In this document: positions 9,690-51,889 of the stretch, piece by piece
Numbering within the stretch: position 1 is the first letter of the stretch
Layout of the letters: every line of letters begins with the position of its first letter
Source: an uncultured Gammaproteobacteria bacterium
GTDB lineage: Bacteria > Pseudomonadota > Gammaproteobacteria > UBA9214
NCBI GenBank assembly: GCA_963701455.1
Contig: CAVPAE010000007.1
Span: 223,761 to 287,760 of the forward strand
Direction of reading: 5' to 3'
DNA: 64,000 nucleotides
Translations under genes and position numbers: made by a program
Notes under the pieces: model-generated
Told to the model about the DNA's origin: nothing
Databases searched by the model: none
The model's input: only the letters and a program-made list of their open reading frames with translations

Positions 9690-10223
9690 ATGAACCAGAC
9701 AACAAGTGACAACGTATTGATCAGCCAGTCGGTCGCCATCCTGGTCGACGGCAACAATATCGAGCGCAGCATCCACGCCGAAACCAACAAGCCGAATACC
9801 ATGCTGAACTTCGACACCCTGGTGCCGCGCCTGCTGGGCAATCGCGGCCTGAACCGGCTGGTGTACTTCCGCGAGGGCAAGCAGATTTCATCGAAACTCA
9901 GGGAACGCCTGCACGCCAATTACCACGGCTCGGTCCGCCCCTGCCACAAGAGCGCGGACATCCCGCTGTCCATCAAGGCCACCCAGCTCGCCAACAAGGT
10001 GGATACCATCATCATCATGTCCGGGGATTCCGACTATGTCGAGCTGGTGCGGCACCTGAAGGCCGAGGGCGTGCGCGTGGAAATCGCCGCCGTTCCCACC
10101 ACCACCTCGAGGCTGCTGATCGATGAGGCCGACTATTTCCACAAGATAACGAAGGATGACTGGTTCACCCTGGAACCCAAGAAGCCCGGCCGGAAAAATG
10201 CTTCAAAAGAGGCGCCGGAGTAG
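9690..10223 (+). CDS. NYN-domain (LabA-like) protein
   Basis: AILVDGNN...KSADIPLSIKA...DTIIIMSGDSDYVELVRHLKAEGVRVEIAAV. Confidence 0.8.
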   Translation: MNQTTSDNVLISQSVAILVDGNNIERSIHAETNKPNTMLNFDTLVPRLLGNRGLNRLVYFREGKQISSKLRERLHANYHGSVRPCHKSADIPLSIKATQLANKVDTIIIMSGDSDYVELVRHLKAEGVRVEIAAVPTTTSRLLIDEADYFHKITKDDWFTLEPKKPGRKNASKEAPE

Positions 10224-26937: not shown

Positions 26938-28553
26938 TCAGAAGTCAGCCCGGTAGCCCAGGTTAATAAAATAGCTGTTGCTCTCTTCAGAGCCATCAAC
27001 AATTTCGCGGTCCGAATATTCCCCCCCGATTTCGGCTTCCAGGCGCAGCCTGCGCTTGATCCGATAGTCCAGCCGCAGTGACGGGCGGTAGGTGATCTGG
27101 TCCGTGCCGTCATCCCGGTTATTGCTGTAATCCATTCTGAAGCGTGGGTTGACCCGAAATTCACTGGTGACGGGATATCGCGTATTTAAATTCAGGGAAT
27201 AGATATCCCTGTTGCCCGCATCGGAATAACGCAGACCTGCTATCGTAATATCACCCGGCTTTACCAGATTGCTTCCGACGAGTTGCAGGTTGTAAACAAA
27301 ATCGGTGCCTGTTCCATCCGTCGCCGCAACACCACCTGAAGCGCTGGTACCAGAAAGGTTAAATGCCGTGACATCACCGCTTACCTGCAGTTTTTCGGTT
27401 ATTGGATGCGACACGCCCAGGGTCGCAAGCTTGCTGGTTGCCGTGCGATCACGCGCCAGATCCTGAATTTCACTGGCTGCAAGGCTGTTCTGCAGCTCAT
27501 CGATTGAGCTGACAGCCTGGCCCACCAGCGCATTCCGGCTCGTAAGGATCGGACTCCTTCTGTAATCTGCGACCACGTTGACCGTGGTCTTGTCCGAGAA
27601 TGTCCAGTTCCCGAGCAGCTGCCCGATATTCAGTTCGTTGTAATGTATGTCGTAGTCGACGAGACTGAAAAACGAACGAGCGGCGTCAAAATATCTGAGC
27701 TCACCACCAACCGCACGACGATCTGTGATTCCATCCACCTGCTGCTCGATAACAAAGGCATTTGCATCCCACCCCTTCGCAAACCCTTCAGTCTCGAGAG
27801 TCAACCCATAGAAGTATCTGTCCGTACCTTCGAAAGCATCAGTCGATGATTCTACCGGGAATCCGCCAACCGCACTCACCGAGAACTTTTTGCCCAAAGG
27901 GACCCCCAGCAACAGGCCGTCAAAGCGCCCCAATACTCCTCCGGTACTGCGGGACTGTCGTCCGATTCGCATGGACATGTCGCTCTGTGTTGAGCTGGCA
28001 TCAAAGTACAGTCGAACTCACAGTGGTATCAGTGTTAGCACCGTCATCAATAAAGTCATGCAAATAGCCACCGGTAAAGCGGGCCTGTAGATTGTAGTCG
28101 CTACCGCGCAGCCGGGCAGTGACATCCATATTGCTGTCCAGAGATGACTGGGTCAGCGTCGTGAGTTCATTGTCATCATCAATATTGGTTGTATTCTCAT
28201 TACGCCGGTAGTACTGGGAAACTCCACCGAACACATCCCACTGCGACTCCGCTTCATTACGCGACTTGCTCCGGGTTGTGCCCAGTTTCTCCCTGGGCTG
28301 TTTTCTGGCAGTCATCAGGGCCGCAAAACGTTGTTTGACACGTTCAGCACCCTCTCCTTCCGGGTAACGCTCAAGATAAGTCCTGTATACCAGTTCTCGC
28401 CTGCGCCAGCTGGTCGTTGCGTTCACGGGCCAGTCCCAGGTATTCCAGGGAATCCTGGCTGTACTGGTTATCGGGCTGCTCCAGAATCTTGGTATATAGC
28501 CTGATTGCCCCGGCATAGTCCTTGTCGGTCATATTGTTACGCGCCTCCTGCAC
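26938..28553 (-). pseudogene. TPR-domain + outer-membrane beta-barrel protein, interrupted by at least 2 frameshifts (may merge with the upstream SPOR-like ORF)
   Basis: C-terminus ends ...GYRADF, an aromatic terminal residue typical of OM beta-barrels. Alternating beta-strand pattern throughout 26938-28516. A one-base shift near 28003-28020 joins ...SSTVL to FDASSTQSDMSMRIG.... A shift near 28385 joins ...LGLARERNDQLAQAR to RELVYRTYLERYPEG... (TPR). Confidence 0.55.
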
Positions 28554-29572
28554 CAGGGAAGCAAGTCGCTCCGGCGTGACAACATTGCCCGCAGCAACTT
28601 CACGCGGAACAACGACTGCAGACGCGTAGTCGCCTCTGGTTGGGCTGTTGTGCCCGCACCGGATCCGGACAGGTTACCGGCGAGCATGGATTCACCGGAA
28701 CGGGTCCTTTCTGCTACTGATGCTTTGGCAACCCAGGAATCCGGGTAATAGGCCTTGAGTTCTTCCCTGACAATATCTGCTTGCTGCACCTTCCTGAAAA
28801 ACCCGAATCGCAGCCGGTACCATGTCTTGCCGTCCTTGACAAAGGTGGTGGTGTAAACGCGATATGCCTGGGATTCACCAGGATCTGGCAAATCCATGAA
28901 TACTTCCGGATCAGGCAAATCATTTACCTCGAACGGCGTGACTGATGAGGCCAGATTAATAACATAAGGATAGAGCGTGGCAGTGGTCGCCGCCTCCACC
29001 GGGACTTCCGTATTGGCAGCAGTCGCTTCAGTCATGATCGCGACAGGTGTTGTCGAATCGCTATCAGGCCGGTTTCCCGGCCCCGCGTGAAGTACGTCTT
29101 CCACTGCAGACGCACCCGGATTTCCCCTGCTTTGCGGATGCTTTACAACTACATCGATGGTCCTGAAATCTCCTGAACGAGGTATCTCGAATTCCACCTC
29201 CTTCTGAAAGCGCAAGGTAATGCTTGTATTCGCGAATCCGGCGCCTTCGTAGGTCACGTCGTACAATGGCATATCTCTGTCCGGACTCCACTGTATCGTC
29301 TGCTCCCCCAGCAATGTATCCCCGGCAGAGCCGAGTGACGGGGCCGGTTCCACAAAGATGCGCAGCAGATCACCGGATCGTTCCGGCGCATGTGATTTGT
29401 AGCTCACCGGAATGGTAAGCCTGATATGGATAGTCGACTGATCCCGGCCAGGTGTGATATCGATGCTGTCGATAACATCAATGGCGGCCTGCGCTCCCGT
29501 AGTAACCGGCACACAACATATAACGCATAACAGCCGCGCGAACCTCGCCATGCCGTGAAATATATTTTTCAT
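28529..29572 (-). CDS. periplasmic protein with SPOR-like domain; 3' end uncertain (probable frameshift into TPR frame near 28640-28680)
   Basis: Signal peptide MKNIFHGMARFARLLCVICCVPVTTGAQA. SPOR-like segment KTWYRLRFGFFRKVQQADIVREELKAYYPDSWV. The alternative frame past 28680 reads protein-like (...VVVPREVAAGNVVTPERLASLVQEARNNMTDKDYAG...). Confidence 0.5.
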   Translation of the reverse strand: MKNIFHGMARFARLLCVICCVPVTTGAQAAIDVIDSIDITPGRDQSTIHIRLTIPVSYKSHAPERSGDLLRIFVEPAPSLGSAGDTLLGEQTIQWSPDRDMPLYDVTYEGAGFANTSITLRFQKEVEFEIPRSGDFRTIDVVVKHPQSRGNPGASAVEDVLHAGPGNRPDSDSTTPVAIMTEATAANTEVPVEAATTATLYPYVINLASSVTPFEVNDLPDPEVFMDLPDPGESQAYRVYTTTFVKDGKTWYRLRFGFFRKVQQADIVREELKAYYPDSWVAKASVAERTRSGESMLAGNLSGSGAGTTAQPEATTRLQSLFRVKLLRAMLSRRSDLLPWCRRRVTI

Positions 29573-30060
29573 TCGCTGACAGGGTCCACAACCGGTTGCT
29601 GCTGGACTTCCGGCGCAACCTCGTCCACATAAACCACGATACTGCGAGAATCCCTGCCCTGTTCCACCCAGAAATCGACACAACGATTGAAGAACAGGGT
29701 CAGATACGGACCACCTTCGATATCTCCCTCATAAACCACCTCGTCGAGCGGCAGGTTTTCATAGTCGAAGGGAACGAGAGTTTCCCGCTTGTGCAAGGCA
29801 TTCAGGTCATCCGCGCTGATCCCAAAAGGCCTGATCCTGATACGCAGTTCCTTGCCAGACTCATACGGGAAGTGGCTGTCATACCTTACCCGCGTTGTCA
29901 GACTGACCTGCACTGTCGTCACAGCATCGGTCTCGTACACATCCAGGGTATCGAGTATTTTCTTTCTGACCGGCTCGGAATCCACCAGCTGCGTGAATAG
30001 GAGCACGCCAAGCGCCAGCAAGATTCCGGCTCGTGCTTTTCGTCCAGGCATCTGCATCAC
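29569..30060 (-). CDS. secreted hypothetical protein (163 aa)
   Basis: Signal peptide (MMQMPGRKARAGILLALGVLLFT). Its stop overlaps the downstream start as ATGA at 29569-29572. Confidence 0.5.
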   Translation of the reverse strand: MMQMPGRKARAGILLALGVLLFTQLVDSEPVRKKILDTLDVYETDAVTTVQVSLTTRVRYDSHFPYESGKELRIRIRPFGISADDLNALHKRETLVPFDYENLPLDEVVYEGDIEGGPYLTLFFNRCVDFWVEQGRDSRSIVVYVDEVAPEVQQQPVVDPVSE

Positions 30061-30070
30061 TGCACCTCCG

Positions 30071-33000
30071 TCAGAAATCGCTACTGGTTGTACGGTGCTC
30101 AGGCCCGGGGCGACGGTCCTTGATCGTCGTCATGCTGCTGTCCGTATACATATGACAGCTTCCCGAACAGTCCCTCAACTCGCTGACACTGTAGGTCGTA
30201 TCGGGATTCTCGTATTTCTTGTGTGCGCTCTGCTTGAAATCATTCGCATGACACGCTGCACAATCCGGCACATACGCAGGTGCCGACCAGTTCACTACCT
30301 CACTGTTTGCCTGGTGACACGCAGTACAGAGAAGATTACTTCTGTGGTCTCCCGGATATGACGCCGAGGTATGCTGGAAATCCAGTGGCACCCAGTAAGA
30401 CGTCGTATGACATGCGTCGCACTGTAAACTGGTGACGAAGTGCCCGCCGGGCTTGCCGGTTGCCGTTGTACCGTTATGACAATTCGAGCATGAACCCGTG
30501 ACTTGGTCGTGATTAAAGCTGGCCGGCAGCCATGCGATAGTCGAATGGCATTCATCGCATTGCGCCGACGTGATGACATGTCCGGATGGCTTTCCGGTTG
30601 AGGTAACCCCGTTGTGGCAGGTAGTACATGTTCCGGGGGTCACATTGGCATGATCGAATACCGCCGGCAGCCAGGCGCTCGTGCTGTGACAGTCATCGCA
30701 GGTGTTGTTGCTGGCGATGTGGTTGACCGACTTGCCGGGCGCCGTGCTGCCATCGTGGCAGCTGAAGCAGGTCCCCAGCACGTCGGCATGGTCCACCCGG
30801 GTCACCGGTAGCCAGGCGCTCGTGCTGTGACAGTCATCGCACAGCGCCGTGGTCTGGATATGGGTACTGTTCTTGCCCGTGGCCGTGGTGCCGTCGTGGC
30901 AGCTCGCGCAGTTGCCGCTCACCGTGCTGTGATCGAAGGTCGCCGGTAGCCAGGCGCTCGTGCTGTGACAGTCATCGCAGGTGTTGTTGCTGGCGATGTG
31001 ATTGGCCGTCTTGCCGGGCGCCGTGCTGCCATCGTGGCAGCTGAAGCAGGTCCCCAGCACGTCGGCATGGTCCACCCGGGTCACCGGCAGCCAGCTACTG
31101 GTGCCGTGGCAGTCCTCGCACAACGCCGTGGTCTGGATGTGGGTCGGGTTCTTGCCCGTGGCCGTGGCACCGTCATGACAGCTCGCGCAGTTGCCGCTCA
31201 CCGTGCTGTGATCGAAGGTCGCCGGCAGCCAGGCACTCGTGCTGTGACAGTCATCGCAGGTGTTGTTGCTGGCGATGTGGTTGACCGACTTGCCGGGCGC
31301 CGTGCTGCCGTCGTGGCAGCTGAAGCAGGTCCCCAGCACGTCGGCATGGTCCACCCGGATCACCGGCAGCCAGCTACTGGTGCCGTGGCAGTCCTCGCAC
31401 AACGCCGTGGTCTGGATGTGGGTCGGGTTCTTGCCCGTGGCCGTGGCACCGTCATGACAGCTCGCGCAGTTGCCGCTCACCGTGCTGTGATCGAAGGTCG
31501 CCGGCAGCCAGGCACTCGTGCTGTGACAGTCATCGCAGGTGTTGTTGCTGGCGATGTGGTTGACCGACTTGCCGGGCGCCGTGCTGCCATCGTGGCAGCT
31601 GAAGCAGGTCCCCAGCACGTCGGCATGGTCCACCCGGGTCACCGGGATCCAGCTGCTGGTGCCGTGGCAGTCCTCGCACAGCGCCGTGGTCTGGATATGG
31701 GTACTGTTCTTGCCCGTGGCCGTGGTGCCGTCGTGGCAGCTCGCGCAGTTGCCGCTCACCGTGCTGTGATCGAAGGTCGCCGGTAGCCAGGCGCTCGTGC
31801 TGTGACAGTCATCGCAGGTGTTGTTGCTGGCGATGTGGTTGGCCGTCTTGCCGGGCGCCGTGCTGCCATCGTGGCAGCTGAAGCAGGTCCCCAGCACGTC
31901 GGCATGGTCCACCCGGGTCACCGGCAGCCAGCTACTGGTGCCGTGGCAGTCCTCGCACAACGCCGTGGTCTGGATGTGGGTCGGGTTCTTGCCCGTGGCC
32001 GTGGCACCGTCGTGACAGCTCGCGCAGTTGCCGCTCACCGTGCTGTGATCGAAGGTCGCCGGTAGCCAGGCGCTCGTGCTGTGACAGTCATCGCAGGTGT
32101 TGTTGCTGGCGATGTGATTGGCCGTCTTGCCGGGCGCCGTGCTGCCATCGTGGCAGCTGAAGCAGGTCCCCAGCACGTCGGCATGGTCCACCCGGGTCAC
32201 CGGCAGCCAGCTACTGGTGCCGTGGCAGTCCTCGCACAGCGCCGTGGTCTGGATATGGGTACTGTTCTTGCCCGTGGCCGTGGTGCCGTCGTGGCAGCTC
32301 GCGCAGTTGCCGCTCACCGTGCTGTGATCGAAGGTCGCCGGCAGCCAGGCGGTGGTGCTGTGACAGTCCTCGCAGGTCGCGGCACTGGGGATGTGGTTCG
32401 TACTCTTGCCGATGGCGGTGGCACCGTCGTGGCAGCTCACGCAGGTCCCCAGTACCTCGGCATGATCGACCTGGATCGCCGGCAGCCAGGCCGTCGTCTG
32501 GTGGCAGGCCTCGCAGATCGTCGTGGTCTGGATGTGGGTCGGATTCTTGCCGGTGGCCGCGGTGCCGTCGTGACAGCTCGCGCAGTTGCCGCTCACCGTG
32601 CTGTGATCGAAGGTCGCCGGTAGCCAGGCGCTCGTGCTGTGACAGTCATCGCAGGTGTTGTTGCTGGCGATGTGGTTCGCACTCTTGCCGATGGCGGTGG
32701 CACCGTCGTGGCAGCTCACGCAGGTCCCCAGCACCTCGGCATGATCGACCTGGATCGCCGGCAGCCAGGCCGTCGTCAGGTGGCAGGCCTCGCAGATCGT
32801 CGTGGTCTGGATGTGGGTACTGTTCTTGCCGGTGGCCGCGGTGCCGTCGTGGCAGCTCGCACAGTTACCGGTGACGTTGCTGTGGTCGAAGGTCGCCGGC
32901 AGCCAGGCGGTGGTGCTGTGACAATCCTCGCAGGTCGCGGCACTGGGGATGTGGTTCGTACTCTTGCCGATGGCGGTGGCACCGTCGTGGCAACTCACGC

Positions 33001-33808
33001 AGGTCCCCAGTACCTCGGCATGATCGACCTGGATCGCCGGCAGCCACGCCGTCGTCAGGTGGCAGGCCTCGCAGACCGTGCTGGTCTGGATGTGTGAGCG
33101 GCGCTTGCCCGTGGCAACGATGCCGTCATGGCAGCTCGAACAGGCACCAGTGATATTGGCATGGTCGAAACTCGCATTCGCCCAGGCGATGGTGGTATGG
33201 CAATCCTCGCAGGTATCGGCACTCGGAACGTGGTGATTCGACTTACCTGTGGCCGTAGCACCATCATGGCAACTTGAGCATGTAGCGGTAACATTACTGT
33301 GATCGAAGGTCGCAGTTGTCCAGGCAGTTGTGGTATGGCAGTCCTCGCAAGTATCGGCACTTGAGATATGATTGGTGGTCTTGCCGGTCGATGTTGATCC
33401 ATCATGACAAGTTGCGCAGGATCCAATAACTGCATCGTGACTCATGTTAGCCAGTGGTTTCCAGTACGCATCCGTATGACATTCTTCACAAACAAGGTTC
33501 GTCTGGATATGATCAGACGGCATCTTGTCTGCCGGCATCGAGCTGGCCTGGTTGTGACAAACCCCGCATTCAACCGGTGTTCCCTCAAATATTCCACGCA
33601 GGTGACAACTCGTACAGGGTGCATTTTTATGCGCGCCTTCAAGCGGGAATCCTGTAGAAAAATGATCAAACCCGGCATTGGTTCCGAGCGCCATCACACC
33701 ATGTGACAGCAAGAACAGGAAACAGACAAACAGGAACATAACAGTCGCAGGCCGGCGGATTTCCCTCGACCCGGCCATTGACATGGTGACTTGTTGTTTA
33801 GGCTTCAT
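30071..33808 (-). CDS. giant c-type cytochrome with about 50 heme-binding motifs (49 CxxCH + 1 CX3CH)
   Basis: Signal peptide ...FLFLLSHGVMA. My hand count gives 49 CxxCH plus CSGSCH near the C-terminus. About nine tandem 93-aa tetraheme modules, with one extra His per heme (FDHS, THIQ, VDHA, NHIA). Start taken at ATG 33808 (MKPKQQ); ORF ATG 33847 is an alternative. Confidence 0.85.
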   Translation of the reverse strand: MKPKQQVTMSMAGSREIRRPATVMFLFVCFLFLLSHGVMALGTNAGFDHFSTGFPLEGAHKNAPCTSCHLRGIFEGTPVECGVCHNQASSMPADKMPSDHIQTNLVCEECHTDAYWKPLANMSHDAVIGSCATCHDGSTSTGKTTNHISSADTCEDCHTTTAWTTATFDHSNVTATCSSCHDGATATGKSNHHVPSADTCEDCHTTIAWANASFDHANITGACSSCHDGIVATGKRRSHIQTSTVCEACHLTTAWLPAIQVDHAEVLGTCVSCHDGATAIGKSTNHIPSAATCEDCHSTTAWLPATFDHSNVTGNCASCHDGTAATGKNSTHIQTTTICEACHLTTAWLPAIQVDHAEVLGTCVSCHDGATAIGKSANHIASNNTCDDCHSTSAWLPATFDHSTVSGNCASCHDGTAATGKNPTHIQTTTICEACHQTTAWLPAIQVDHAEVLGTCVSCHDGATAIGKSTNHIPSAATCEDCHSTTAWLPATFDHSTVSGNCASCHDGTTATGKNSTHIQTTALCEDCHGTSSWLPVTRVDHADVLGTCFSCHDGSTAPGKTANHIASNNTCDDCHSTSAWLPATFDHSTVSGNCASCHDGATATGKNPTHIQTTALCEDCHGTSSWLPVTRVDHADVLGTCFSCHDGSTAPGKTANHIASNNTCDDCHSTSAWLPATFDHSTVSGNCASCHDGTTATGKNSTHIQTTALCEDCHGTSSWIPVTRVDHADVLGTCFSCHDGSTAPGKSVNHIASNNTCDDCHSTSAWLPATFDHSTVSGNCASCHDGATATGKNPTHIQTTALCEDCHGTSSWLPVIRVDHADVLGTCFSCHDGSTAPGKSVNHIASNNTCDDCHSTSAWLPATFDHSTVSGNCASCHDGATATGKNPTHIQTTALCEDCHGTSSWLPVTRVDHADVLGTCFSCHDGSTAPGKTANHIASNNTCDDCHSTSAWLPATFDHSTVSGNCASCHDGTTATGKNSTHIQTTALCDDCHSTSAWLPVTRVDHADVLGTCFSCHDGSTAPGKSVNHIASNNTCDDCHSTSAWLPAVFDHANVTPGTCTTCHNGVTSTGKPSGHVITSAQCDECHSTIAWLPASFNHDQVTGSCSNCHNGTTATGKPGGHFVTSLQCDACHTTSYWVPLDFQHTSASYPGDHRSNLLCTACHQANSEVVNWSAPAYVPDCAACHANDFKQSAHKKYENPDTTYSVSELRDCSGSCHMYTDSSMTTIKDRRPGPEHRTTSSDF
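30500..33050. repeat. tandem array of about nine 279-bp units (93-aa tetraheme modules) inside the 50-heme cytochrome gene, several copies near-identical at DNA level
   Basis: Identical antisense ORF peptides recur at 31260, 31539 and 31818 (279-bp spacing). 30965 and 32081 share peptide text 1116 bp (4 x 279) apart. This is coding, not a CRISPR array. Confidence 0.85.
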
Positions 33809-33861
33809 ATGCTGTTCTGTTTCCTGAATTAGCAATACCCGGAACACCGGAAATAGCGCCC

Positions 33862-35445
33862 TTACCTGATTTCCACCACGTCAAACGATTCCGTCGTGTG
33901 GCAACGATCGCAATACTTCCCAAACTCTCCGTCATGCACATCCTCCTGGCGATGACAGGAAACACAGGTACCTGGCAGCCTGATTTCTCCTGTTATTTCC
34001 TCAACGTGACAGGACAGACAATCAATATCCTGATGCGCACCATCCAGTTCGTAATTCGTGTGAACGTTGTGTTCAAACTCCCACAAAGACCAGTCATTCG
34101 GGTTATGACACGACTCACAGCGCGGGCCCAAGCGGCGTTCATGCACATCATCCGGCTGATGACAAACATTGCATTCACGTGCCGCCTGTTTGTATGCCGA
34201 TGTCAGATGGCACTCCTCGCACGGGGTAACCGCATGCAAACCGAGAAGCGGGAAATCGGTCATATCGTGTTCGAAACGCACCTTCCCGCCCCAGCCATCC
34301 TCGTCATGGCATTTCTCACAACGCTTGCCCTCCTGGCCCTCGTGCACATCATCCGCTCCATGACAACTGAAACATTCCGTTGCAAGTTTTTCCTCGTAAA
34401 CCTCACCCCTGTGACAGGATGAGCAACTGGCTTCCTGATGCTTCCCGCGCAATGGAAACTCCGTTTCCCGATCATGCTCGTACTTCACCTTGTCCCAGCC
34501 ACGCGTGCTGTGGCAGGCCTGGCATTTATTCCCGTATCGGCCAGCGTGCTTGTCGTCACCGCGATGACAGTCGATACATTCCGTGCCCAGTGCCGTGTCA
34601 TACAGTTTCCCCACATGGCAGACATCGCACTTCACTTCCCGGTGACTTCCGGAAAGCGAATATCCCGTATCACGATCATGATCGAACCGGGAGCGGTCCC
34701 AGCCTGCCTCTGAATGACAGTCTTTGCATTTCTGCCCGTAACGACCGGCATGCACATCATTCAGCCTGTGGCAGGTATGGCATTCCCCGGGGATATCCTT
34801 GTATTTGTGATTGACGTGGCAACTGTCACAGGCCAGTTCTGCATGCTTTTCCCGAAGCACGAAATCCGTGTCGTCGTGGTTGAATTCCTGGCTGGTCCAA
34901 CTGCGCTCGGCATGGCAATCCGCACACTGCTCACCAAGCCTGCCTGCATGAATGTCGTCTCCCTCATGGCATGAGACGCACTCCTGCGGCGCATCGCGGA
35001 ATTTTTTCCCTTCAGCGTGGCAGGCTGCACAACGCGTCGCAATATGCGCACCCTTTAGCAAGTAATCCGTTTCATCATGTGCAAAGGTTTCAACATCCAG
35101 CTGGACTACGTCTGCATCGCGACCCTTGTGATCGCTATGGCAATGACTGCACTCTGCATTCCTTGCCACTCCCAACCCGTGGAAACCTGTCTGCTGCCGA
35201 ATATCTGCATCGACTTCCTCGTGACAGTCCCGGCACAGCATGCTTTGGCTCTCCTTGCTGAAGGGCTTGTGGCACTTTTCACACTCTTCCTCGTATTTCA
35301 TGTGCCCCTCTATCACCTGCCCCGGTTTGACCAGTGATTCGATTCCTGCAAACACAGTCGAACCGAAGCACATAGCCGCCACAAAGAGGGTGGCGGCAAT
35401 ACAAATCCGGTACCGTTTCACAGTGACTTTTCTTGCATGGGCCAT
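33862..35445 (-). CDS. 21-heme c-type cytochrome (7 x tri-heme repeat)
   Basis: Signal peptide MAHARKVTVKRYRICIAATLFVAAMCFGSTVFA. 21 CxxCH motifs in a repeating CxxCH-x~15-CxxCH-xxDDxHxGxxGxxCxxCH-x4-W-x5-FxH pattern. Its start shares one nucleotide with the upstream stop (TGATG at 35443-35447). Confidence 0.85.
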   Translation of the reverse strand: MAHARKVTVKRYRICIAATLFVAAMCFGSTVFAGIESLVKPGQVIEGHMKYEEECEKCHKPFSKESQSMLCRDCHEEVDADIRQQTGFHGLGVARNAECSHCHSDHKGRDADVVQLDVETFAHDETDYLLKGAHIATRCAACHAEGKKFRDAPQECVSCHEGDDIHAGRLGEQCADCHAERSWTSQEFNHDDTDFVLREKHAELACDSCHVNHKYKDIPGECHTCHRLNDVHAGRYGQKCKDCHSEAGWDRSRFDHDRDTGYSLSGSHREVKCDVCHVGKLYDTALGTECIDCHRGDDKHAGRYGNKCQACHSTRGWDKVKYEHDRETEFPLRGKHQEASCSSCHRGEVYEEKLATECFSCHGADDVHEGQEGKRCEKCHDEDGWGGKVRFEHDMTDFPLLGLHAVTPCEECHLTSAYKQAARECNVCHQPDDVHERRLGPRCESCHNPNDWSLWEFEHNVHTNYELDGAHQDIDCLSCHVEEITGEIRLPGTCVSCHRQEDVHDGEFGKYCDRCHTTESFDVVEIR

Positions 35446-36413
35446 CAGTACATGTGCACGGCATACACATGGACAAGACCGGCAATCAAAAGCATGATGA
35501 AGAGAGGCAGATGGAGAACGTGCCACATGGAAAACAACCGCTCGAAGAATGAAAAGCCGGCCACCTTGCGGACCGTATACAGGTATGTGCGCAGGTAATA
35601 CCCTGCCTTGCGGTAATAATAGCGGCGTTGCTCTCGAGTCAGTCTCTCGCGAACAATCGGTGTCCTGAAGAATCGGCGCAACTCCAGCAGGGATACCAGC
35701 AGGCACCAGCGTGATCTGATGTTGATCACCAGCATACTGACCAGGCAAGAGAGAAAGCCGTTTTGGGTTGCCACCGCCTTGTCTTCAATACGCTGCAGCC
35801 GGACCTTCATTCCCGGCATTTCCTTGAAGACGGGTCCGAGTTCCGCCATGGCCATTGCTGTATCGCTGCCCAGATCCTCAAGATCTGCTTTTCGGCCATA
35901 CAGACCGTAGTGGACTTTTGAATATATAAATCTGCCGATCAGGCCACTGCCGGCAACCAGCAGCATACTGAACAGGGCGACATTCCCGTTTATGGAACCG
36001 AGCTGGAAGTTACAATGCAGGAGAATACAAACAGGCCCCAGGATACCCAGCAACATGTGCCCCCTGAACCAGTGGCGCACCGGTCCGAAGCCCTGTGCCC
36101 AGCGCGCATGCTTGCGTAGCGGATACAGCATGAGCAACAGCATCATCGTGCCTCCTGTTATACCAAGGGCATAACCGATACCTAGCTCCGGTGTGAGATA
36201 AAGGTAACTGCCATACTTCCATCCGCAATACACAAGCAGCAGGACCAACAGGTGGAAGACCGGTAACTCCGGAACCCGGGAAGACCTCTCACGTCCCTCA
36301 TTATCCCGTTTGATAATGGGTTCATTTGCAGGGTCCTGAGGGTATCCCGCGACGCCTGCGGCTTGAGTTATCGAGTTCTTGTCAATATCAAAAACAGTCT
36401 GTACTTCACTCAT
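35445..36413 (-). CDS. polytopic membrane protein with conserved His in TM helices; putative b-type cytochrome / quinol-interacting subunit
   Basis: About 6 TM helices. His residues sit in TM1 (FHLL), TM3 (HWFRGHMLLG...LLHCNF) and TM6 (MWHVLHLP...LVHVYAVHMY). Translationally coupled to the 21-heme gene. Start at MSEVQ (36413); ATG 36503 is an alternative. Confidence 0.5.
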   Translation of the reverse strand: MSEVQTVFDIDKNSITQAAGVAGYPQDPANEPIIKRDNEGRERSSRVPELPVFHLLVLLLVYCGWKYGSYLYLTPELGIGYALGITGGTMMLLLMLYPLRKHARWAQGFGPVRHWFRGHMLLGILGPVCILLHCNFQLGSINGNVALFSMLLVAGSGLIGRFIYSKVHYGLYGRKADLEDLGSDTAMAMAELGPVFKEMPGMKVRLQRIEDKAVATQNGFLSCLVSMLVINIRSRWCLLVSLLELRRFFRTPIVRERLTREQRRYYYRKAGYYLRTYLYTVRKVAGFSFFERLFSMWHVLHLPLFIMLLIAGLVHVYAVHMY

Positions 36414-36766: not shown

Positions 36767-38068
36767 ATGACCGATACCGCACTTTATTTCTATCTGACCC
36801 CGATGCTGTTCATCTGGGGCATTTACTATGGATTTCGCACCAGGAGGCATCGCCGCGCCACCCGCTTGCGCGATGACGCACAAAAGTCCGGTCTTCTGGC
36901 TCCGGCATCACTCCACCCCGTGATAGATTCATGCCGCTGCCTGGGTTGTCGGTCCTGCGTAAGCGCCTGCCCGGAAAAATCAGTACTGGGAATTATTGAT
37001 AGCAAATCCGTGCTGGTCAGCCCTGCCAACTGCATCGGGCACGGCGCATGCAAAACCGCCTGCCCGATGAACGCAATCACACTGGTGTTTGGCACATCCG
37101 AACGCGGCGTCGATATTCCACTGGTTGCTCCCGACTACGAGACCAATGTTCCCGGTCTTTTTATTGCCGGAGAACTGGGCGGGATGGGGCTGATTCGCAA
37201 CGCCGTTGAACAGGGCCGTCAGGCAATGGCATCCATCATCGAGCACTGTCGGAAGGGAAACAGGCAGGAACTGGATGTCGTAATCGTCGGCGCCGGACCC
37301 GCGGGTCTTTCAGCCAGCCTGGCCGCACAGGAAAGCGGCCTGCGCTACGCAACACTCGAACAGGATTCTCTCGGGGGAACGGTATCCCATTTCCCGCGAG
37401 GAAAAATTGTCATGACAGCTCCTGTAAAGCTACCCCAGGTCGGCACAGTTAAATTCAGGGAGATATCCAAGGAAGCACTGCTGGAATTCTGGGAGGACGT
37501 CATCAGGAAGACAGGCGTGCAGATCATATTCAGGGAACGCGTTGAAGCCATCACGCCTCTTGCAGGAGGACTAGAAGTCAGGACTCCCGGGAATGTCTAT
37601 CGCACCAAATGCGTCCTGCTCGCGATTGGCCGGCGCGGCACACCGCGCAAGCTGGATGTGCCTGGCGAAGAATCAACAAAAGTCGTCTACCGGCTGATAG
37701 ATCCAGAGCAATACCGCAATCAGAAAGTACTGGTTGTCGGGGGTGGAGACAGCGCCCTGGAGGCCGCGATAAGTATTGCCGAGCAGCCCGGCACGGATGT
37801 CAGCCTGTCTTATCGCAGCGCTGCATTTTCCCGCGCCAAGGAAAAGAACCGGCAGAAGATTGATGACTTGAACAATTCAGGCCGCTTGAAAGTCTTCCTG
37901 AATTCCACGGTCAGCGAAATACATGAGAACAGGGTAGAAATAGACCAGCAAGGCAACATGATTGATATCGGGAATGATGCCGTGATCGTCTGTGCCGGTG
38001 GCATTTTACCTACACCCTTCCTGAAAGAAATCGGCGTCGAGGTGGAAACAAAATATGGCACGCAGTAA
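36767..38068 (+). CDS. membrane-anchored 4Fe-4S ferredoxin-domain + FAD/NAD(P)-binding pyridine nucleotide-disulfide oxidoreductase-like protein
   Basis: N-terminal TM helix. Two Cys clusters (CRCLGCRSCVSACP and CIGHGACKTACP). Two Rossmann GxGxxG motifs (VVIVGAGPAG, VLVVGGGDSA). Confidence 0.7.
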   Translation: MTDTALYFYLTPMLFIWGIYYGFRTRRHRRATRLRDDAQKSGLLAPASLHPVIDSCRCLGCRSCVSACPEKSVLGIIDSKSVLVSPANCIGHGACKTACPMNAITLVFGTSERGVDIPLVAPDYETNVPGLFIAGELGGMGLIRNAVEQGRQAMASIIEHCRKGNRQELDVVIVGAGPAGLSASLAAQESGLRYATLEQDSLGGTVSHFPRGKIVMTAPVKLPQVGTVKFREISKEALLEFWEDVIRKTGVQIIFRERVEAITPLAGGLEVRTPGNVYRTKCVLLAIGRRGTPRKLDVPGEESTKVVYRLIDPEQYRNQKVLVVGGGDSALEAAISIAEQPGTDVSLSYRSAAFSRAKEKNRQKIDDLNNSGRLKVFLNSTVSEIHENRVEIDQQGNMIDIGNDAVIVCAGGILPTPFLKEIGVEVETKYGTQ

Positions 38069-40145
38069 GACGATTACCGGATTCTGCAGCCACGGACCGT
38101 TATTACGCTCCTGTTCAGCCATTGCTGCATGTCTGCTGTTTGCCTGCCTCTTCGCACCATCTGCCGCCGCCACCGGGGAGTTTGATGAAATACGCGCCGC
38201 CATCCGGGTGCGTGACTTTGGAAAGGCCATCCCCCTGCTTGAAACCCTGGCAAGCTCGGGCAACCCCGACGCCCAGTATCAACTTGCCGCCTTGTATCGC
38301 GCAGGCTCCGGCGTTGCAAAGGATCACGAAACCGCATTTTACTGGCTGGACAAGGCCGCACACCGGAATCACAGGCAGGCCCAGTACAACCTGGGCGTTA
38401 TGTATGAATATGGATGGGGAACGCTGGCAAGCGCGGCAGCTGCAGCCGACTGGTATGAAAAGGCCGCCGCACAGGGCCACCCGATGGCGCAGGAAAAGCT
38501 TAACGAGAGTGATATAGCCGCACGCCGCACAAGAGATAATACGCGGCCTGGCGAAGCACCCGACCCGGACCTGTTACTGCGGCGGGCCGTGACAAGGGGC
38601 GATGCGCGGTCGGCCAGTGAAGCCATCAAGGCCGGCGCCAATGTGGATGCAACTGACAAATACGGCAGAACCGCGCTCATTGATGCCGCCGAACAGGGAT
38701 TTACTGAAATCGTCGAGCTGTTGATAAGCAATAATGCCGACATCAACCACGAGGATGCCTATCGCAACAGCGCACTGCTCCTGGCAACCGGCAATGGCCA
38801 TTCCGATACGGTCAGGAAACTGCTCACTGCCAATGCAGACAGCAACGCCACGGACACAAATGGCAACACCCCGTTGATGATCGCGAGTGGAAGGAATGAT
38901 GTAGAGATTGTCCGGGCATTGATAGCACAGGGCGCACGCCTTTACGGGAAAAACACCACGGGTGATTCTGCCGCTGATATCGCGGCCCGCAAGCGGCATG
39001 CTGAGATACTGAAAATCCTGCAGGCGCGTGGCGCCAATCCTGAAAAGCATTTTGCCCAGAAGAAGGCGACGATCGCCAAACGCCTTGCCATGCAGAATCC
39101 TGACCCGGCATCCGGATCCGGTGGCAAGGAATCATCACAGCCATATGCAGGCTGGTCAGCGCTGATGGAGTCTGCCTGGCGCGGCCAGGAAGAAATCGTC
39201 CGGGAACTGCTGGACCGGGGCGTCGATATCAATAGCAGGGATGATCAGGGCCACACTGCCCTGACGCGCGCAGCCAGCAAGGGGAACAGCAAGATTGTGC
39301 AGCTGTTACTGGAAGCCGGCGCCGATACCGGTGTCACCCGTGACGATGGCATGACCTTGCTCATGCTGGGCACTGCATCGGGTGATGCCGACACGGTCAC
39401 GTTGCTGCTTGCAAGGGAGCGCAATATCAACGCAAGGGATACCGATGGTTGCACTGCCCTCTGCTACTCGGTCCGCAACGGTGACACGGATATTGCCAGC
39501 CTGCTGTTGCAGCATGGTGCCGACAGCAACCTGGCTCTGAATGACGGCAGGACGGTCCTGATGCTGGCGGCTGAAATGGACACACCGGAGATACTGGCTC
39601 TGCTGCTCGCAAACGCACCCGCGGTCAACCAGCCGGACAAGACCGGCCTGACTGCCTTGTCATACGCGGTTATCAAGGGACACGAAAAGAATGCGCGCAT
39701 GCTGCTGGAGCATGGCGCGAAGCCAAACATCAGCGACTCGAAAAAGCGCACCCCGCTTACGCTTGCCGCCACGGGTAAAAACACAAATATTGTCGACCTG
39801 CTGATCAAGCACCGGGCTGACATCGCAACAAGCACCAGCGATGGTAATACGCCGCTTATTCTTGCAGCCAATTCCGGGAATACTGCCATCGCCGGCCGTC
39901 TGATAAAAGCAGGAGCAGATATCAATGTGCGCAACAATAATGGAAACACAGCCCTGATGCTTGCTGCCGCAAACAATCATGTCGACATCGTCAGGATCCT
40001 GCTGGAAACCGGCGCCAGGGCGGGAATCAGGAACAACAATCGCAAAAGCGCCAGCGACCTGGCCGAGGCCTCGGGAAATACGGAAACACTTGCCGTCCTT
40101 GAAAAGCACCGCAGTAGCGGGCTATGGTCATCCAGCTGGTTCTGA
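38055..40145 (+). CDS. secreted Sel1-repeat + ankyrin-repeat (about 15 ANK) protein
   Basis: Signal peptide. Sel1-like units (AQYQLAALYRAGSGVAKD, AQYNLGVMYEYGWG). Then repeated G.TALM.AA..G...IV..LL..GA..N units through the C-terminus. Overlaps the upstream gene by 14 nt. Confidence 0.8.
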   Translation: MARSKTITGFCSHGPLLRSCSAIAACLLFACLFAPSAAATGEFDEIRAAIRVRDFGKAIPLLETLASSGNPDAQYQLAALYRAGSGVAKDHETAFYWLDKAAHRNHRQAQYNLGVMYEYGWGTLASAAAAADWYEKAAAQGHPMAQEKLNESDIAARRTRDNTRPGEAPDPDLLLRRAVTRGDARSASEAIKAGANVDATDKYGRTALIDAAEQGFTEIVELLISNNADINHEDAYRNSALLLATGNGHSDTVRKLLTANADSNATDTNGNTPLMIASGRNDVEIVRALIAQGARLYGKNTTGDSAADIAARKRHAEILKILQARGANPEKHFAQKKATIAKRLAMQNPDPASGSGGKESSQPYAGWSALMESAWRGQEEIVRELLDRGVDINSRDDQGHTALTRAASKGNSKIVQLLLEAGADTGVTRDDGMTLLMLGTASGDADTVTLLLARERNINARDTDGCTALCYSVRNGDTDIASLLLQHGADSNLALNDGRTVLMLAAEMDTPEILALLLANAPAVNQPDKTGLTALSYAVIKGHEKNARMLLEHGAKPNISDSKKRTPLTLAATGKNTNIVDLLIKHRADIATSTSDGNTPLILAANSGNTAIAGRLIKAGADINVRNNNGNTALMLAAANNHVDIVRILLETGARAGIRNNNRKSASDLAEASGNTETLAVLEKHRSSGLWSSSWF

Positions 40146-42233: not shown

Positions 42234-42917
42234 TCAAAGTAAAGAAGGATCTCTCCGGGGATCGGTCTGTCTTGTCAATGCCTGGTATTCACGCACCAGG
42301 TCACCGGCACTCGCAAAACCCTCCATGCGAACCCAGCCTGTTTGCGGTGCAGCATGCATGAATGTCAACGGTATGTGATTCATCTTGTCGCGCCGGTATG
42401 CATCAAAAGCTTTCAGCACCGCCACGATGTCTTCACGATCCCCGGTCAGAAACGTCCAGCCTGTGCTGGCCTGGAAACGCTGCGCATATTCCCGAAGTTT
42501 TGCCGGAGTATCATGCTCAGGATCGATGGTAACTGAGATCATTCGAACATTATCCGCTTCAGGACCAAGGGCCTTCCGGGTCTGGGTAAAGCTGGCACTC
42601 AGGACCGGACAGATAGTTGTGCACGTGGTAAATATAAAATTCAGCATCACCGGCTCATTACCCTCCAGCATGTCGTGCAGGGAAACCTTCCTGCCGTCCT
42701 GATCGGTCAGTACGACATCGGGCACCTGGTATTCCTGTTCCTTGCGGACATAGCCCTTTTGCTGCAGCATCTGCCTGTGCTGCGAATGATCAACTCCATG
42801 CTGGTGCATATGGTGGGCAGCATCTCCGTCATCCAGGGCATGACCGGACGATGCCATGCCGAACGTAACCAGCAGGCCCATCATCCTGCCCGCAAACCTT
42901 ATTTTGTTATTCAGCAT
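42234..42917 (-). CDS. SCO1/SenC-family thioredoxin-like copper chaperone
   Basis: Membrane anchor, His-rich stretch (HHMHQHGVDHSQH), CxxxCP motif (FTTCTTICP), DPEHDT motif. Start at MLNNKIRF (42917). Confidence 0.8.
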   Translation of the reverse strand: MLNNKIRFAGRMMGLLVTFGMASSGHALDDGDAAHHMHQHGVDHSQHRQMLQQKGYVRKEQEYQVPDVVLTDQDGRKVSLHDMLEGNEPVMLNFIFTTCTTICPVLSASFTQTRKALGPEADNVRMISVTIDPEHDTPAKLREYAQRFQASTGWTFLTGDREDIVAVLKAFDAYRRDKMNHIPLTFMHAAPQTGWVRMEGFASAGDLVREYQALTRQTDPRRDPSLL

Positions 42918-42985
42918 GTCGTATTCTCCTTTTGTAATAACGTCCCTGCTTGTTGATATTCCCCGCGGCAGAGCCACAGCCGCTT

Positions 42986-46596: not shown

Positions 46597-46617
46597 CAGA
46601 ATCACCTTGAGGAGAAA

Positions 46618-46784
46618 CTGAACAAGTCCTGATCCGTCATTCCGGCGCATGCCGGACAAAAGTGCATGGCGCGTTGAACGCCCGGAGGGCGGCCCGCAGG
46701 GCGAGCGAAGCGAGTCATCCAGGGAAATCAACAAGCTGGACCCCGGCCTTCGCCGGGGTGACGACTTATTCAGGGTTTCCTTGA
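46618..46784 (+). repeat. ~167-bp interspersed repeat family C, full copy
   Basis: Direct repeat of 44743-44908. The two copies flank the protease gene. Confidence 0.85.
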
Positions 46785-46804
46785 GCTTCAGGCTTTTCAT
46801 GGCA

Positions 46805-47308
46805 TCACTCCACAACGATGTGCTCTTGCCTGAAGTCACCGATCACCAGGGTGACCTGATCTCCAGCCTTGACGGCACGGCCGGGATTGGCAAAGAACAT
46901 AAAATAGTTCCGGTCCACCTTGGCAAACTTCGGTGCCTGGCGCAGCGGCCCGATCTTGGCCGAGACCGGCACCTGCAGCTTGTGGCCGTTTTTTTCCACG
47001 ATCAGCTGCGGTTTAATCTTGCGGTCCATGATGGCAGCGGCCTTTTCCGGGTCCAGCATCCGGAACCGGAAATCCAGCATGTAATCAGCCGCGGTCCGGC
47101 GGATCCCGATGACACGTATCCCCCAGGGATCTCCGGGGTCTGCCTGTTCCTGCTCAGCAACGTTCGGCACTGCGACACTTGTTGCAAAGACCAGCTGTCC
47201 TGGCATAAACATGAACGCAAGCCCCAGCACCACCAGCAGGGCTACCGCGATTTGTACGGTATGGACGCATACCCCCAAGGTGATCCGCCTGGTCTGAGTC
47301 TGTTGCAT
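46805..47308 (-). CDS. membrane-anchored periplasmic hypothetical protein (167 aa)
   Basis: A single TM helix (IAVALLVVLGLAFMF) then a soluble domain. Lies between the MCO-like triad and the protease. Confidence 0.45.
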   Translation of the reverse strand: MQQTQTRRITLGVCVHTVQIAVALLVVLGLAFMFMPGQLVFATSVAVPNVAEQEQADPGDPWGIRVIGIRRTAADYMLDFRFRMLDPEKAAAIMDRKIKPQLIVEKNGHKLQVPVSAKIGPLRQAPKFAKVDRNYFMFFANPGRAVKAGDQVTLVIGDFRQEHIVVE

Positions 47309-51828: not shown

Positions 51829-51889
51829 TGGTCTATCCTCCTGTGTGCCCCGGGGTGGAGGCATCCCACCCCGGAACGCTAGCCCTTGG

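What the first reader, a model, noticed from the sequence alone, without database searches (positions are those of the whole stretch)
30071..33808. About 50-heme c-type cytochrome built from near-identical tetraheme modules, plus a rare CX3CH motif
Directly counted: 49 CxxCH plus CSGSCH (CX3CH) at the C-terminal end in a 1245-aa mature protein. Each 93-aa module carries four CxxCH and four additional His (FDHS, THIQ, VDHA, NHIA), consistent with bis-His ligation of every heme. Cytochromes above about 30 hemes are rare. A CX3CH site usually needs a tolerant or dedicated heme lyase, but no dedicated lyase gene is visible in the window.
Basis: seen in the sequence. Interest (0 to 1): 0.88.

Follow-up and report, generated by a model that had tools for sequence, protein, structure and literature searches.

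The report
Fifty-heme cytochrome of a PCC3 cluster
The gene really does encode a cytochrome with 50 heme sites. It is an ordinary, large member of an already described but functionally untested family: the big multiheme cytochrome of "PCC3" porin-cytochrome clusters, thought to carry electrons across the bacterial cell envelope.

Summary
ORF 30071..33808 (-) has 49 CxxCH plus one CSGSCH, against 0.7 CxxCH expected by chance. It contains nine tandem 93-aa tetraheme modules, and nearly every heme site has a spare His 7 residues before the next site.

The gene is not an oddity. It is the third gene of an operon: a 5-TM inner-membrane protein with two WX3HX13H motifs, a 21-heme cytochrome, the 50-heme cytochrome, a small protein, and a SPOR/TPR/beta-barrel outer-membrane protein. 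This matches the PCC3 cluster of He et al. 2017, who reported a median of 34 hemes for this cytochrome and members with 63 and 85.

In 36 genome loci with a complete orthologue, heme counts run from 9 to 90 (median 30, six with 50 or more). Of the 120 best database homologues, 81 have at least 50.

The CX3CH is a family hallmark. The last heme site is C-x-G-x-CH in 48 of those 120 homologues and CX4-6CH in 50. The closest orthologue has the identical CSGSCH, so it is not a base error.

Module number varies by lineage-specific tandem amplification between conserved end caps.

Function is inferred: an MtrA/MtrC-like bis-His heme wire. The downstream porin gene carries three frameshifts, and the copy number cannot be verified here.

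The parts
30071..33808 (-). Gene for the 50-heme c-type cytochrome, the large PCC3 multiheme cytochrome (1245-aa precursor)
   Evidence: ORF; motif count; Pfam Cytochrome_C7, Cytochrom_c3_2, Paired_CXXCH_1 and MtrC/MtrF II/IV; GC3 0.77; 3490 homologues at E<=1e-10.
33686..33808 (-). Predicted Sec signal peptide (aa 1 to about 41); no lipobox
   Evidence: Hydrophobic stretch at aa 16-34. The cleavage site after VMA is inferred by eye.
33179..33685 (-). Conserved N-terminal cap (hemes 1-7; first heme-site spacings 16, 26, 24)
   Evidence: The same spacing pattern is seen in orthologues L008, L012, L021, L032, L066, L083 and L067, with 41-59% identity. Residues 60-274 match nearly the whole DmsE/MtrA decaheme profile.
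30668..33178 (-). Nine tandem 93-aa (279-bp) tetraheme modules (hemes 8-43)
   Evidence: Six copies are 92-99% identical in DNA, and the longest exact repeat is 229 bp.
30071..30667 (-). Diverged last module plus the conserved C-terminal cap (hemes 44-50; final spacings 31 and 22, then 31 to the CX3CH site)
   Evidence: 81% identical to L008 and 46-60% to other orthologues. Invariant columns are listed. The cap is always at the protein's C-terminus in 233 clusters.
30152..30169 (-). CSGSCH, the CX3CH heme-binding site (heme 50)
   Evidence: C-x-G-x-C-H is invariant in the cap alignment, and the motif is identical in L008.
33862..35445 (-). 21-heme cytochrome made of seven c7-like triheme units (the PCC3 'periplasmic MHC'), with a signal peptide
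   Evidence: 21 CxxCH with a period of 67-68 aa. Pfam Cytochrome_C7. 55% identical to the L001 orthologue. 55 of 68 related loci have exactly 21 hemes.
35445..36413 (-). PCC3 inner-membrane protein (322 aa, 5 hydrophobic helices, two WX3HX13H motifs and SGXXG). Its stop codon overlaps the next gene's ATG by 1 nt
   Evidence: Alignment A2 invariants W103, H107, H121, S144, G145, G148, W285, H286, H289 and H303. TM scan. TGATG junction.
29569..30060 (-). 163-aa secreted protein, a paralogue of the porin's N-terminal domain
   Evidence: 30-33% identical to residues 12-168 of the porin orthologues. An orthologue occupies the same place in L008. No family hit.
26938..29572 (-). Outer-membrane partner ('porin'): N-terminal domain, SPOR domain, TPR, then a C-terminal putative beta-barrel ending GYRADF. 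Broken here by three +/-1 frameshifts (near 28640, 28391 and 28012)
   Evidence: tblastn against the 848-aa L001 and 869-aa L008 orthologues. Frame translations. SPOR scores 26.9 bits against a cut-off of 21.
36767..38068 (+). Divergently transcribed flavoprotein with two [4Fe-4S] motifs and an FAD/NAD(P) domain, anchored by an N-terminal helix; a conserved neighbour of the inner-membrane protein
   Evidence: Pfam. N-terminal hydrophobic helix followed by RTRRHRR. Present in 74 of 80 loci at 52-81% identity and in Ferribacterium.
38055..40145 (+). Sel1/ankyrin-repeat protein with a signal peptide; a conserved neighbour
   Evidence: Pfam. Signal peptide. Present in 61 of 80 loci.

Best explanation
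The gene encodes the large multiheme cytochrome of a PCC3-type porin-cytochrome cluster.

Shown: it is the third gene of a tightly coupled operon. The order is a putative di-heme-b inner-membrane protein, a 21-heme cytochrome, the 50-heme cytochrome, a small secreted protein, and a SPOR/TPR/beta-barrel outer-membrane protein. The protein is built as a conserved N-cap, then n 23-aa one-heme units (here nine 93-aa tetraheme modules), then a conserved C-cap whose last site is C-x-G-x-CH. There is one spare His per heme.

Inferred: after Sec export, the general cytochrome c maturation system attaches 50 hemes, all bis-His ligated. They pack as in MtrA/MtrC into one continuous chain. If the chain is extended it would be roughly 40-50 nm long, scaling from about 8-10 nm per 10 hemes in MtrA. 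Electrons hop along it between the 21-heme cytochrome, which is fed by or feeds the inner-membrane protein, and a partner at or beyond the outer membrane. The two caps would be the docking ends, and the middle a spacer whose length changes by unequal recombination between modules.

The direction of electron flow and the physiological partner are unknown; mineral, metal and electrode-like surfaces are all candidates.
For: Motifs and modules.

Operon and synteny with L001, L003, L008 and L087.

The inner-membrane protein carries exactly the motifs that He et al. 2017 give for PCC3 (two WX3HX13H on helices 3 and 5, plus SGXXG).

The 21-heme partner has seven units of about 67 aa, as in their Supplementary Figure 1.

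The aa/heme ratio is 24.9 and the composition is rich in T, S, A and G, as they describe.

The same cap-modules-cap architecture occurs with 9 to 90 hemes across 36 complete orthologues.

Modules are more alike within a gene than between orthologues: 92-99% DNA identity within the window gene, 97-99% within L008, and 78-82% between the two genes. L008 also has a 46-aa half-module step. This indicates lineage-specific amplification.

Homology to solved heme wires: the two-module profile hits MtrC at 1.6e-12, MtrF at 1.2e-9 and MtrA (6r2q_A) at 5.5e-9. The NCBIfam DmsE/MtrA decaheme model scores 243.5 bits, with residues 60-274 covering profile positions 32-248 of 258.
Against: No PCC3 component has been tested experimentally; the family was still called 'functionally unverified' in 2025.

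In this assembly the porin gene has three frameshifts. The conduit may therefore be broken here, or the assembly may have local errors.

Heme occupancy, ligation and chain geometry are not shown. The AlphaFold2 models were weak (pLDDT 46.6 and 67.1) and gave no fold matches.

The 'extracellular' label of He et al. rests on PSORTb/CELLO predictions. N-terminal SPOR fusions in relatives argue that at least the N-terminus is periplasmic.

The module copy number cannot be checked without reads.
Confidence: 0.7

Rival explanations
1. The 50-heme protein is not extracellular. It stays in the periplasm, tethered at the peptidoglycan layer together with the SPOR-bearing barrel protein. There it serves as an electron store (capacitor) or as a lateral or radial periplasmic wire.
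For: It has a Sec signal peptide without a lipobox. The barrel protein carries a SPOR domain above the Pfam cut-off. SPOR domains are fused to the N-terminus of the large cytochrome in two distant lineages: one copy in P0058, P0116 and L012, and three copies in L021 at 84.9 bits. Hoover et al. raise a capacitor role for PCC3 cytochromes.
Against: SPOR fusions are rare, at 2 of the 120 best homologues, and the window protein has none. A chain of about 40-50 nm plus the 21-heme partner is longer than a typical periplasm (my estimate). The conserved pairing with a large barrel protein and the homology to MtrA, which sits inside MtrB, favour passage through the outer membrane.
Confidence: 0.2
2. 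The heme number is an assembly artefact. The near-identical 279-bp modules were collapsed or over-expanded, and the true gene has a different number of modules.
For: Six modules are 92-99% identical and the longest exact repeat is 229 bp. Short-read contigs of close relatives break or garble inside this gene (L004, L005). The neighbouring porin gene has three frameshifts, which may signal local sequence errors. The exact protein is not found elsewhere in the collection.
Against: The ORF is intact over 3.7 kb, and every module differs from the others at specific sites in a consistent mosaic. The window's genes lie on a 409-kb contig, which suggests a long-read-quality assembly. Orthologues with 38 to 90 hemes in long contigs show that such arrays are real. 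Any error would change the count in steps of 2 or 4 hemes, not the nature of the protein.
Confidence: 0.12
3. The cluster is decaying in this organism. With the barrel gene inactivated, the 50-heme gene is a remnant that is no longer used as a conduit.
For: The barrel gene has three independent frameshifts while the L008 orthologue is a single 869-aa ORF.
Against: All other genes of the cluster are intact, including the 3.7-kb repeat gene, which would be an easy target for disruption. Codon differences among the young modules are more often synonymous (96) than not (61). He et al. found the same kind of split in the Leptothrix ochracea PCC3 porin and attributed it to a sequencing error.
Confidence: 0.1

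Closest known systems
PCC3 'extracellular' multiheme cytochrome (He et al. 2017, Front Microbiol 8:1584; Hoover et al. 2023, mSystems 8:e00038-23)
   Same: The gene order is the same: inner-membrane protein, then an approximately 21-heme cytochrome, then the large cytochrome, then the porin. The inner-membrane protein has the same motifs, and the partner has the same seven units of about 66 aa. The large cytochrome has the same 23/24-aa heme period, about 25-26 aa per heme and a T/S/A/G-rich composition. Its heme number falls within the reported range (median 34, up to 85).
   Different: This copy comes from an unnamed gammaproteobacterial lineage. The best genome match to the inner-membrane protein is 65-67% identical. 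Several features found here are absent from the main text of either paper on a term search: SPOR domains; a conserved cap-modules-cap plan; the CX3-6CH last site as a family hallmark; and the conserved flavoprotein and Sel1/ankyrin neighbours. Here the porin gene is frameshifted.
MtrA/MtoA/DmsE decaheme cytochromes and MtrC/MtrF of the Shewanella MtrCAB complex (PDB 6R2Q, 4LM8, 3PMQ)
   Same: These are the closest solved relatives by profile search and by the NCBIfam and Pfam models. They are bis-His heme chains with very little protein per heme, and they work with an outer-membrane barrel.
   Different: They have 10 hemes in about 300 aa, against 50 hemes in one chain here. MtrC is a lipoprotein with beta-barrel domains, which this protein lacks. 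The partner barrel here has SPOR and TPR parts and gives no MtrB family hit.
Geobacter c7-type poly-cytochromes (GSU1996 family, 'nanowire' triheme domains, TIGR04257)
   Same: They are tandemly repeated small heme domains within one polypeptide. The 21-heme partner is of this type.
   Different: The 50-heme protein scores below that model's cut-off (28.2 against 40 bits). Its unit is a di-/tetraheme module, not a triheme one.
Polymerised cytochrome filaments (OmcS, OmcE, OmcZ)
   Same: The proposed role is the same: long-range electron conduction along stacked hemes.
   Different: Those are non-covalent polymers of 4- to 8-heme subunits. Here the length is encoded in a single polypeptide and set by module number. 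This comparison is from my own knowledge and was not tested here.

Membership tests
PCC3 porin-cytochrome cluster (He et al. 2017) | [quoted passage not shown] | tested here: met
   The order on the minus strand is 36413 to 26938, with overlapping or near-overlapping stops and starts. The same order is seen in L001, L003, L008 and L087.
PCC3 porin-cytochrome cluster (He et al. 2017) | Inner-membrane protein of about 300 aa with five TM helices, two WX3HX13H motifs (helices 3 and 5) and SGXXG (helix 4) | tested here: met
   322 aa with five hydrophobic segments. WFRGH-x13-H, SGLIG and WHVLH-x13-H are present, and these residues are invariant or nearly so in 17 homologues. The definition is quoted.
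PCC3 porin-cytochrome cluster (He et al. 2017) | Periplasmic cytochrome with about 21 hemes in repeats of about 66 aa | tested here: met
   21 CxxCH, a period of 67-68 aa and 25.1 aa per heme.
PCC3 porin-cytochrome cluster (He et al. 2017) | Large cytochrome with very many hemes, a low aa/heme ratio, low-complexity T/S/A/G-rich sequence, and one heme site per repeat | tested here: met
   50 sites at 24.9 aa per heme. Composition is T 14.1, S 10.6, A 10.5 and G 6.8%. The period is 23/24 aa.
PCC3 porin-cytochrome cluster (He et al. 2017) | Outer-membrane beta-barrel (porin) | tested here: inconclusive
   The C-terminal 357 aa are 74% identical to the L008 partner and end in GYRADF. The L008 protein gives only a weak KdgM porin hit (E 0.0036, below cut-off). 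No barrel model was made. The gene is split by three frameshifts in the window.
PCC3 porin-cytochrome cluster (He et al. 2017) | Large cytochrome located outside the cell | not testable with these tools
   The paper's call rests on PSORTb/CELLO. The signal peptide has no lipobox. N-terminal SPOR fusions in relatives suggest a periplasmic N-terminus.
PCC3 porin-cytochrome cluster (He et al. 2017) | Role in extracellular electron transfer | not testable with these tools
   The role was still untested in the literature read.
DmsE/MtrA decaheme family (NCBIfam TIGR03508) | The model's score cut-off and a decaheme protein of about 300 aa | tested here: not met
   The score of 243.5 bits exceeds the 192.2 cut-off, but it is summed over 10 stretches of a repeat protein. 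The protein has 50 hemes in 1245 aa. It is a distant relative, not a member.
c7-type triheme 'nanowire' domain proteins (TIGR04257) | Triheme c7 domain above the model's cut-off | tested here: not met
   28.2 bits against a cut-off of 40 for the 50-heme protein.

The most novel reading that the evidence does not exclude
PCC3 may not be a quinone-linked iron-oxidation conduit. It could instead be a split NOX/MsrQ-like electron exporter. In that reading, a membrane-anchored cytoplasmic FeS flavoprotein takes electrons from NAD(P)H or a similar donor and passes them to the di-heme-b inner-membrane protein. Electrons then run through the 21-heme cytochrome into a peptidoglycan-tethered heme wire. 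The wire's length is tuned by module number, so the modules act as a genetically adjustable spacer. The conserved C-x-G-x-CH cap would be the specialised terminal site. The flavoprotein (74 of 80 loci), the periplasmic Sel1/ankyrin protein (61 of 80) and the SPOR domains would then be core parts of the machine that published models omit.
Probability: 0.2. Interest if true: 0.7.

Novelty: new member of a known kind. Interest (0 to 1): 0.36.

Why it matters
PCC3 clusters are widespread. Relatives of the inner-membrane protein were found in 533 stretches of the species-representative genome collection. They occur in Gamma-, Beta- and Alphaproteobacteria, Thermodesulfobacteriota, Myxococcota, Binatia and Omnitrophota. 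They encode some of the most heme-dense proteins known, yet no component has been tested.

This window adds one more member and does not change that picture. The comparative results are the useful output for anyone designing experiments on how bacteria move electrons over tens of nanometres:
- conserved end caps with a CX3-6CH terminal site;
- lineage-specific module amplification;
- SPOR links to peptidoglycan;
- two conserved extra genes next to the cluster.

Tried and rejected
- AlphaFold2 of the C-terminal 290 aa with a 12-row alignment gave pLDDT 46.6, too poor to use.
- Single-sequence search against PDB gave only marginal hits. The profile search was the informative one.
- Identifying the organism failed. 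The best genome match to the inner-membrane protein is 65-67% identical. Exact look-ups show only that the window's genes lie on a 409,460-bp NCBI/ENA contig whose cluster mates are named 'Gammaproteobacteria bacterium'. The contig itself could not be fetched.
- The 50-heme protein is not in the collection under any of five start codons, so there is no independent assembly to confirm the module number.
- Close metagenomic relatives (inner-membrane protein 90-92% identical) sit on short-read contigs that end or garble inside the repeat gene. A more distant one (81% identical) shows no multiheme cytochrome called downstream of that gene.
- Literature searches for Ccm tolerance of CX3CH/CX4CH sites found nothing quotable. 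That point rests on memory.
- He et al.'s supplementary figure holds no sequences, so a direct alignment to their PCC3 proteins was not possible.
- I considered a c7/GSU1996-type membership and a true MtrA membership for the 50-heme protein and rejected both.


Full report

Yes. The longest ORF at 30071..33847 (-) is 1258 aa from a GTG.

A regex count gives 49 CxxCH and one CSGSCH, with no CX4CH and no CxxCK. Shuffling the protein 2000 times gives 0.69 CxxCH on average and never more than 4. The other five reading frames of the same DNA contain 0-1 motifs and 15-45 stop codons. Third-position GC is 0.77, like other genes of the window.

The spacing of heme sites is 16, 26, 24, then a long run of 23/24, then 31 and 22. 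TRF reports 8.9 copies of a 279-bp period at 91% matches.

Cut in register, there are nine 93-aa tetraheme modules (aa 211-1047, window 30668..33178). Six of them are 92-99% identical in DNA. Three older ones are 70-91% identical to the rest. The longest exact repeat is 229 bp.

Of the 103 His in the 1245-aa product, 50 are in heme motifs and 53 are not. Of those 53, 44 sit exactly 7 residues before the next CxxCH. So the bookkeeping for bis-His ligation works.

One correction: 1245 aa is the precursor. Residues 16-34 are a signal-peptide core.

**2. What is around it?**

The gene is the third in a minus-strand operon with overlapping or nearly abutting stops and starts.
- A 322-aa membrane protein (35445..36413).
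- A 21-heme cytochrome built of seven c7-like units of about 67 aa (33862..35445).
- The 50-heme gene.
- A 163-aa secreted protein (29569..30060).
- A gene for a SPOR/TPR/C-terminal barrel-like protein ending GYRADF (26938..29572).

In this assembly the last gene is split by three +/-1 frameshifts. Its orthologues in L001 (848 aa) and L008 (869 aa) are single ORFs.

Two genes are transcribed divergently. One is a flavoprotein with two [4Fe-4S] motifs and an FAD/NAD(P) domain behind an N-terminal membrane helix (36767..38068). The other is a Sel1/ankyrin protein with a signal peptide (38055..40145).

No ccm or ccs gene is in the window.

**3. What family is it?**

The arrangement is the 'PCC3' cluster defined bioinformatically by He et al. 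2017 (PMC5566968). [quoted passage not shown] The inner-membrane protein is about 300 aa with five helices, two WX3HX13H motifs and SGXXG.

The window protein has WFRGH-x13-H, SGLIG and WHVLH-x13-H. These residues are invariant or nearly so across 17 homologues down to 47% identity.

The paper's example of the periplasmic partner (21 hemes, seven 66-aa repeats) and of the large cytochrome (23/24-aa period, 26 aa per heme) matches the window.

He et al. give medians of 34 and 21 hemes and cite members with 63 and 85 hemes. Hoover et al. 2023 found 10-35 hemes in Gallionellaceae and modelled the proteins as long and mostly linear. A 2025 preprint still calls PCC3 'functionally unverified'.

**4. 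How unusual are 50 hemes and the CX3CH within the family?**

The protein search returned 3490 homologues at E<=1e-10. The best 120 carry 22-81 heme motifs (median 57, and 81 have at least 50). That list is biased towards long proteins, because bit score grows with repeat number.

A less biased sample comes from a scan of one genome per species with an inner-membrane-protein profile. It found 533 confirmed stretches, of which the best 80 were kept. In those 80 loci the first cytochrome downstream has exactly 21 hemes in 55 of 68 cases. The 36 complete large cytochromes have 9-90 heme sites, with a median of 30 and six at 50 or more. The largest is 90, in an Omnitrophota MAG.

So 50 hemes is in the upper fifth of the family, not outside it.

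The last heme site lies within the final 45 residues. It is CX3CH in 48 of the 120 homologues, always with Gly in the middle (TGA, SGA, AGA, AGS, AGT, YGS, NGA). It is CX4CH in 45 and CX5-6CH in 5. In a 12-sequence alignment of the cap, C259, G261, C263, H264 and a final H283 are invariant.

The nearest orthologue, L008, has an 81% identical C-terminal region and the identical CSGSCH. The CX3CH is therefore a conserved feature and not a base error.

A search of 1.84 billion cluster representatives with the last 110 residues found 233 clusters at E<=0.001. The match lies at the very C-terminus of nearly all of them.

**5. Architecture and evolution**

All orthologues examined share the N-cap spacing (16, 26, 24 or a close variant) and the C-cap spacing (31 or 32, then 22, then 24-31 to the last site). 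They differ in the number of 23/24-aa units in between.

Modules are much more alike within a gene than between orthologues. Identity is 92-99% in DNA among the six young window modules, 97-99% among six L008 modules, and only 78-82% between the two genes. L008 also contains a 46-aa half-module step.

This is the signature of lineage-specific tandem amplification or homogenisation. Heme number is thus a fast-evolving length parameter between conserved ends. Among the young window modules, codon differences are 96 synonymous against 61 non-synonymous.

**6. How it most likely works**

The module profile detects the solved Shewanella heme wires: MtrC 1.6e-12, MtrF 1.2e-9 and MtrA (6r2q_A) 5.5e-9. 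The DmsE/MtrA decaheme model aligns almost end to end with residues 60-274. Pfam gives MtrC/MtrF II/IV hits.

I therefore infer an MtrA/MtrC-like packing of bis-His hemes into one chain. He et al. quote about 100 Angstrom for decaheme MtrA. Scaling from that, 50 hemes would reach roughly 40-50 nm if extended, which is longer than a periplasm by my estimate. This favours passage through, or extension beyond, the outer-membrane barrel.

The membership and the architecture are shown. Heme occupancy, ligation, geometry, location and the direction of electron flow are inferred.

**7. Observations that go beyond the published description**

(a) SPOR domains, which bind peptidoglycan, score above the Pfam cut-off in the barrel protein (26.9 bits in the window, 25.1 in L008). 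They are fused to the N-terminus of the large cytochrome in two distant lineages: one copy in P0058, P0116 and L012, and three copies at 84.9 bits in the deltaproteobacterial L021. This suggests the N-terminus of the 'extracellular' cytochrome is periplasmic. No paper in the library combines 'multiheme cytochrome' with 'SPOR domain'.

(b) The FeS flavoprotein and the Sel1/ankyrin protein accompany the inner-membrane protein in 74 and 61 of 80 loci. In Delta/Thermodesulfobacteriota loci they sit on the same strand directly upstream of it. The flavoprotein is also present in the cultured Ferribacterium limneticum. A term search found neither PCC3 paper mentioning them in its main text. He et al. 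liken the inner-membrane protein to the ferric-reductase/NOX transmembrane domain. Together with that, these neighbours allow a NOX/MsrQ-like reading in which cytoplasmic reductant is exported. I rate this reading as possible but unproven.

(c) A CcmI/CycH-like gene lies in 24 of 80 loci and in F. limneticum, but not in the window.

**8. Caveats**

The module number cannot be verified. Short-read contigs of close relatives break inside the gene. The exact protein is not found elsewhere. The porin frameshifts may point to local assembly errors or to decay.

Structure prediction was uninformative.

The organism is known only as an uncultured Gammaproteobacteria-like lineage on a 409-kb contig.

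**9. Verdict**

The interpretation of rarity and of the CX3CH is overstated. The gene is a new, large member of the known PCC3 large-cytochrome family. Interest is moderate, because the family is unexplored experimentally rather than because this copy is special.

Noticed in passing
window 26938..29572 (-): The outer-membrane partner gene is interrupted by three +/-1 frameshifts (near 28640, 28391 and 28012). The TPR part is readable only in another frame. Orthologues in L001 and L008 are single ORFs of 848 and 869 aa. It is either a pseudogene or local assembly error.
   Followed up: partly
window 36767..38068 (+) and 38055..40145 (+): A membrane-anchored 2x[4Fe-4S] + FAD/NAD(P) flavoprotein and a secreted Sel1/ankyrin protein are conserved next to the PCC3 inner-membrane protein in 74 and 61 of 80 genome loci. 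In Delta/Thermodesulfobacteriota loci they lie on the same strand upstream of it. A term search found neither gene mentioned in the main text of the two PCC3 papers read.
   Followed up: partly
L021 12563..16117; L012 12517..15621; P0058, P0116: In some relatives the large cytochrome carries one or three N-terminal SPOR (peptidoglycan-binding) domains. The barrel protein also has a SPOR domain. This implies a peptidoglycan tether for the complex.
   Followed up: partly
L001 6698..7450; L087 17436..18659; 24 of 80 loci: A CcmI/CycH-like (TPR + Ig_CycH) apocytochrome-chaperone gene is often part of related clusters. It is absent from this window.
   Followed up: partly
window 29569..30060 (-): A 163-aa secreted protein sits between the 50-heme gene and the barrel gene. 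It is a paralogue (about 30% identical) of the barrel protein's N-terminal domain and is conserved in L008. It gives no family hit.
   Followed up: partly
window 11..1741 (+): Another multiheme cytochrome ORF (576 aa, 9 CxxCH, weak c7/MtrC-type Pfam hits), followed by a PD40/beta-propeller protein at 1888..3429.
   Followed up: no
window 49266..50540 and 50569..52230 (-): Two adjacent ORFs with multicopper oxidase domains.
   Followed up: no
window 51890..57070 (-): A 1726-aa Gly-rich ORF with a hydrophobic N-terminal stretch and no Pfam hit. It overlaps the upstream end of the multicopper oxidase ORF at 50569..52230 by 340 nt.
   Followed up: no
window 9068..9919, 12649..13716, 42234..42977, 44920..46839: The neighbourhood is rich in periplasmic copper and redox genes: CopD, a di-heme MauG/cytochrome c peroxidase, SCO1/SenC, and a subtilase with a MopE-type copper-binding motif.
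   Followed up: no
L083 12824..19291 (Omnitrophota MAG JACKFL010000006.1): An orthologue of the large cytochrome with 90 heme sites (89 CxxCH plus CTGSCH) in 2155 aa. This is more than the 85 cited as the record in 2017.
   Followed up: no
window 35443..35447: The stop codon of the inner-membrane protein gene and the ATG of the 21-heme gene overlap by one base (TGATG). The small protein's stop and the barrel gene's start overlap as ATGA. Both suggest translational coupling.
   Followed up: yes
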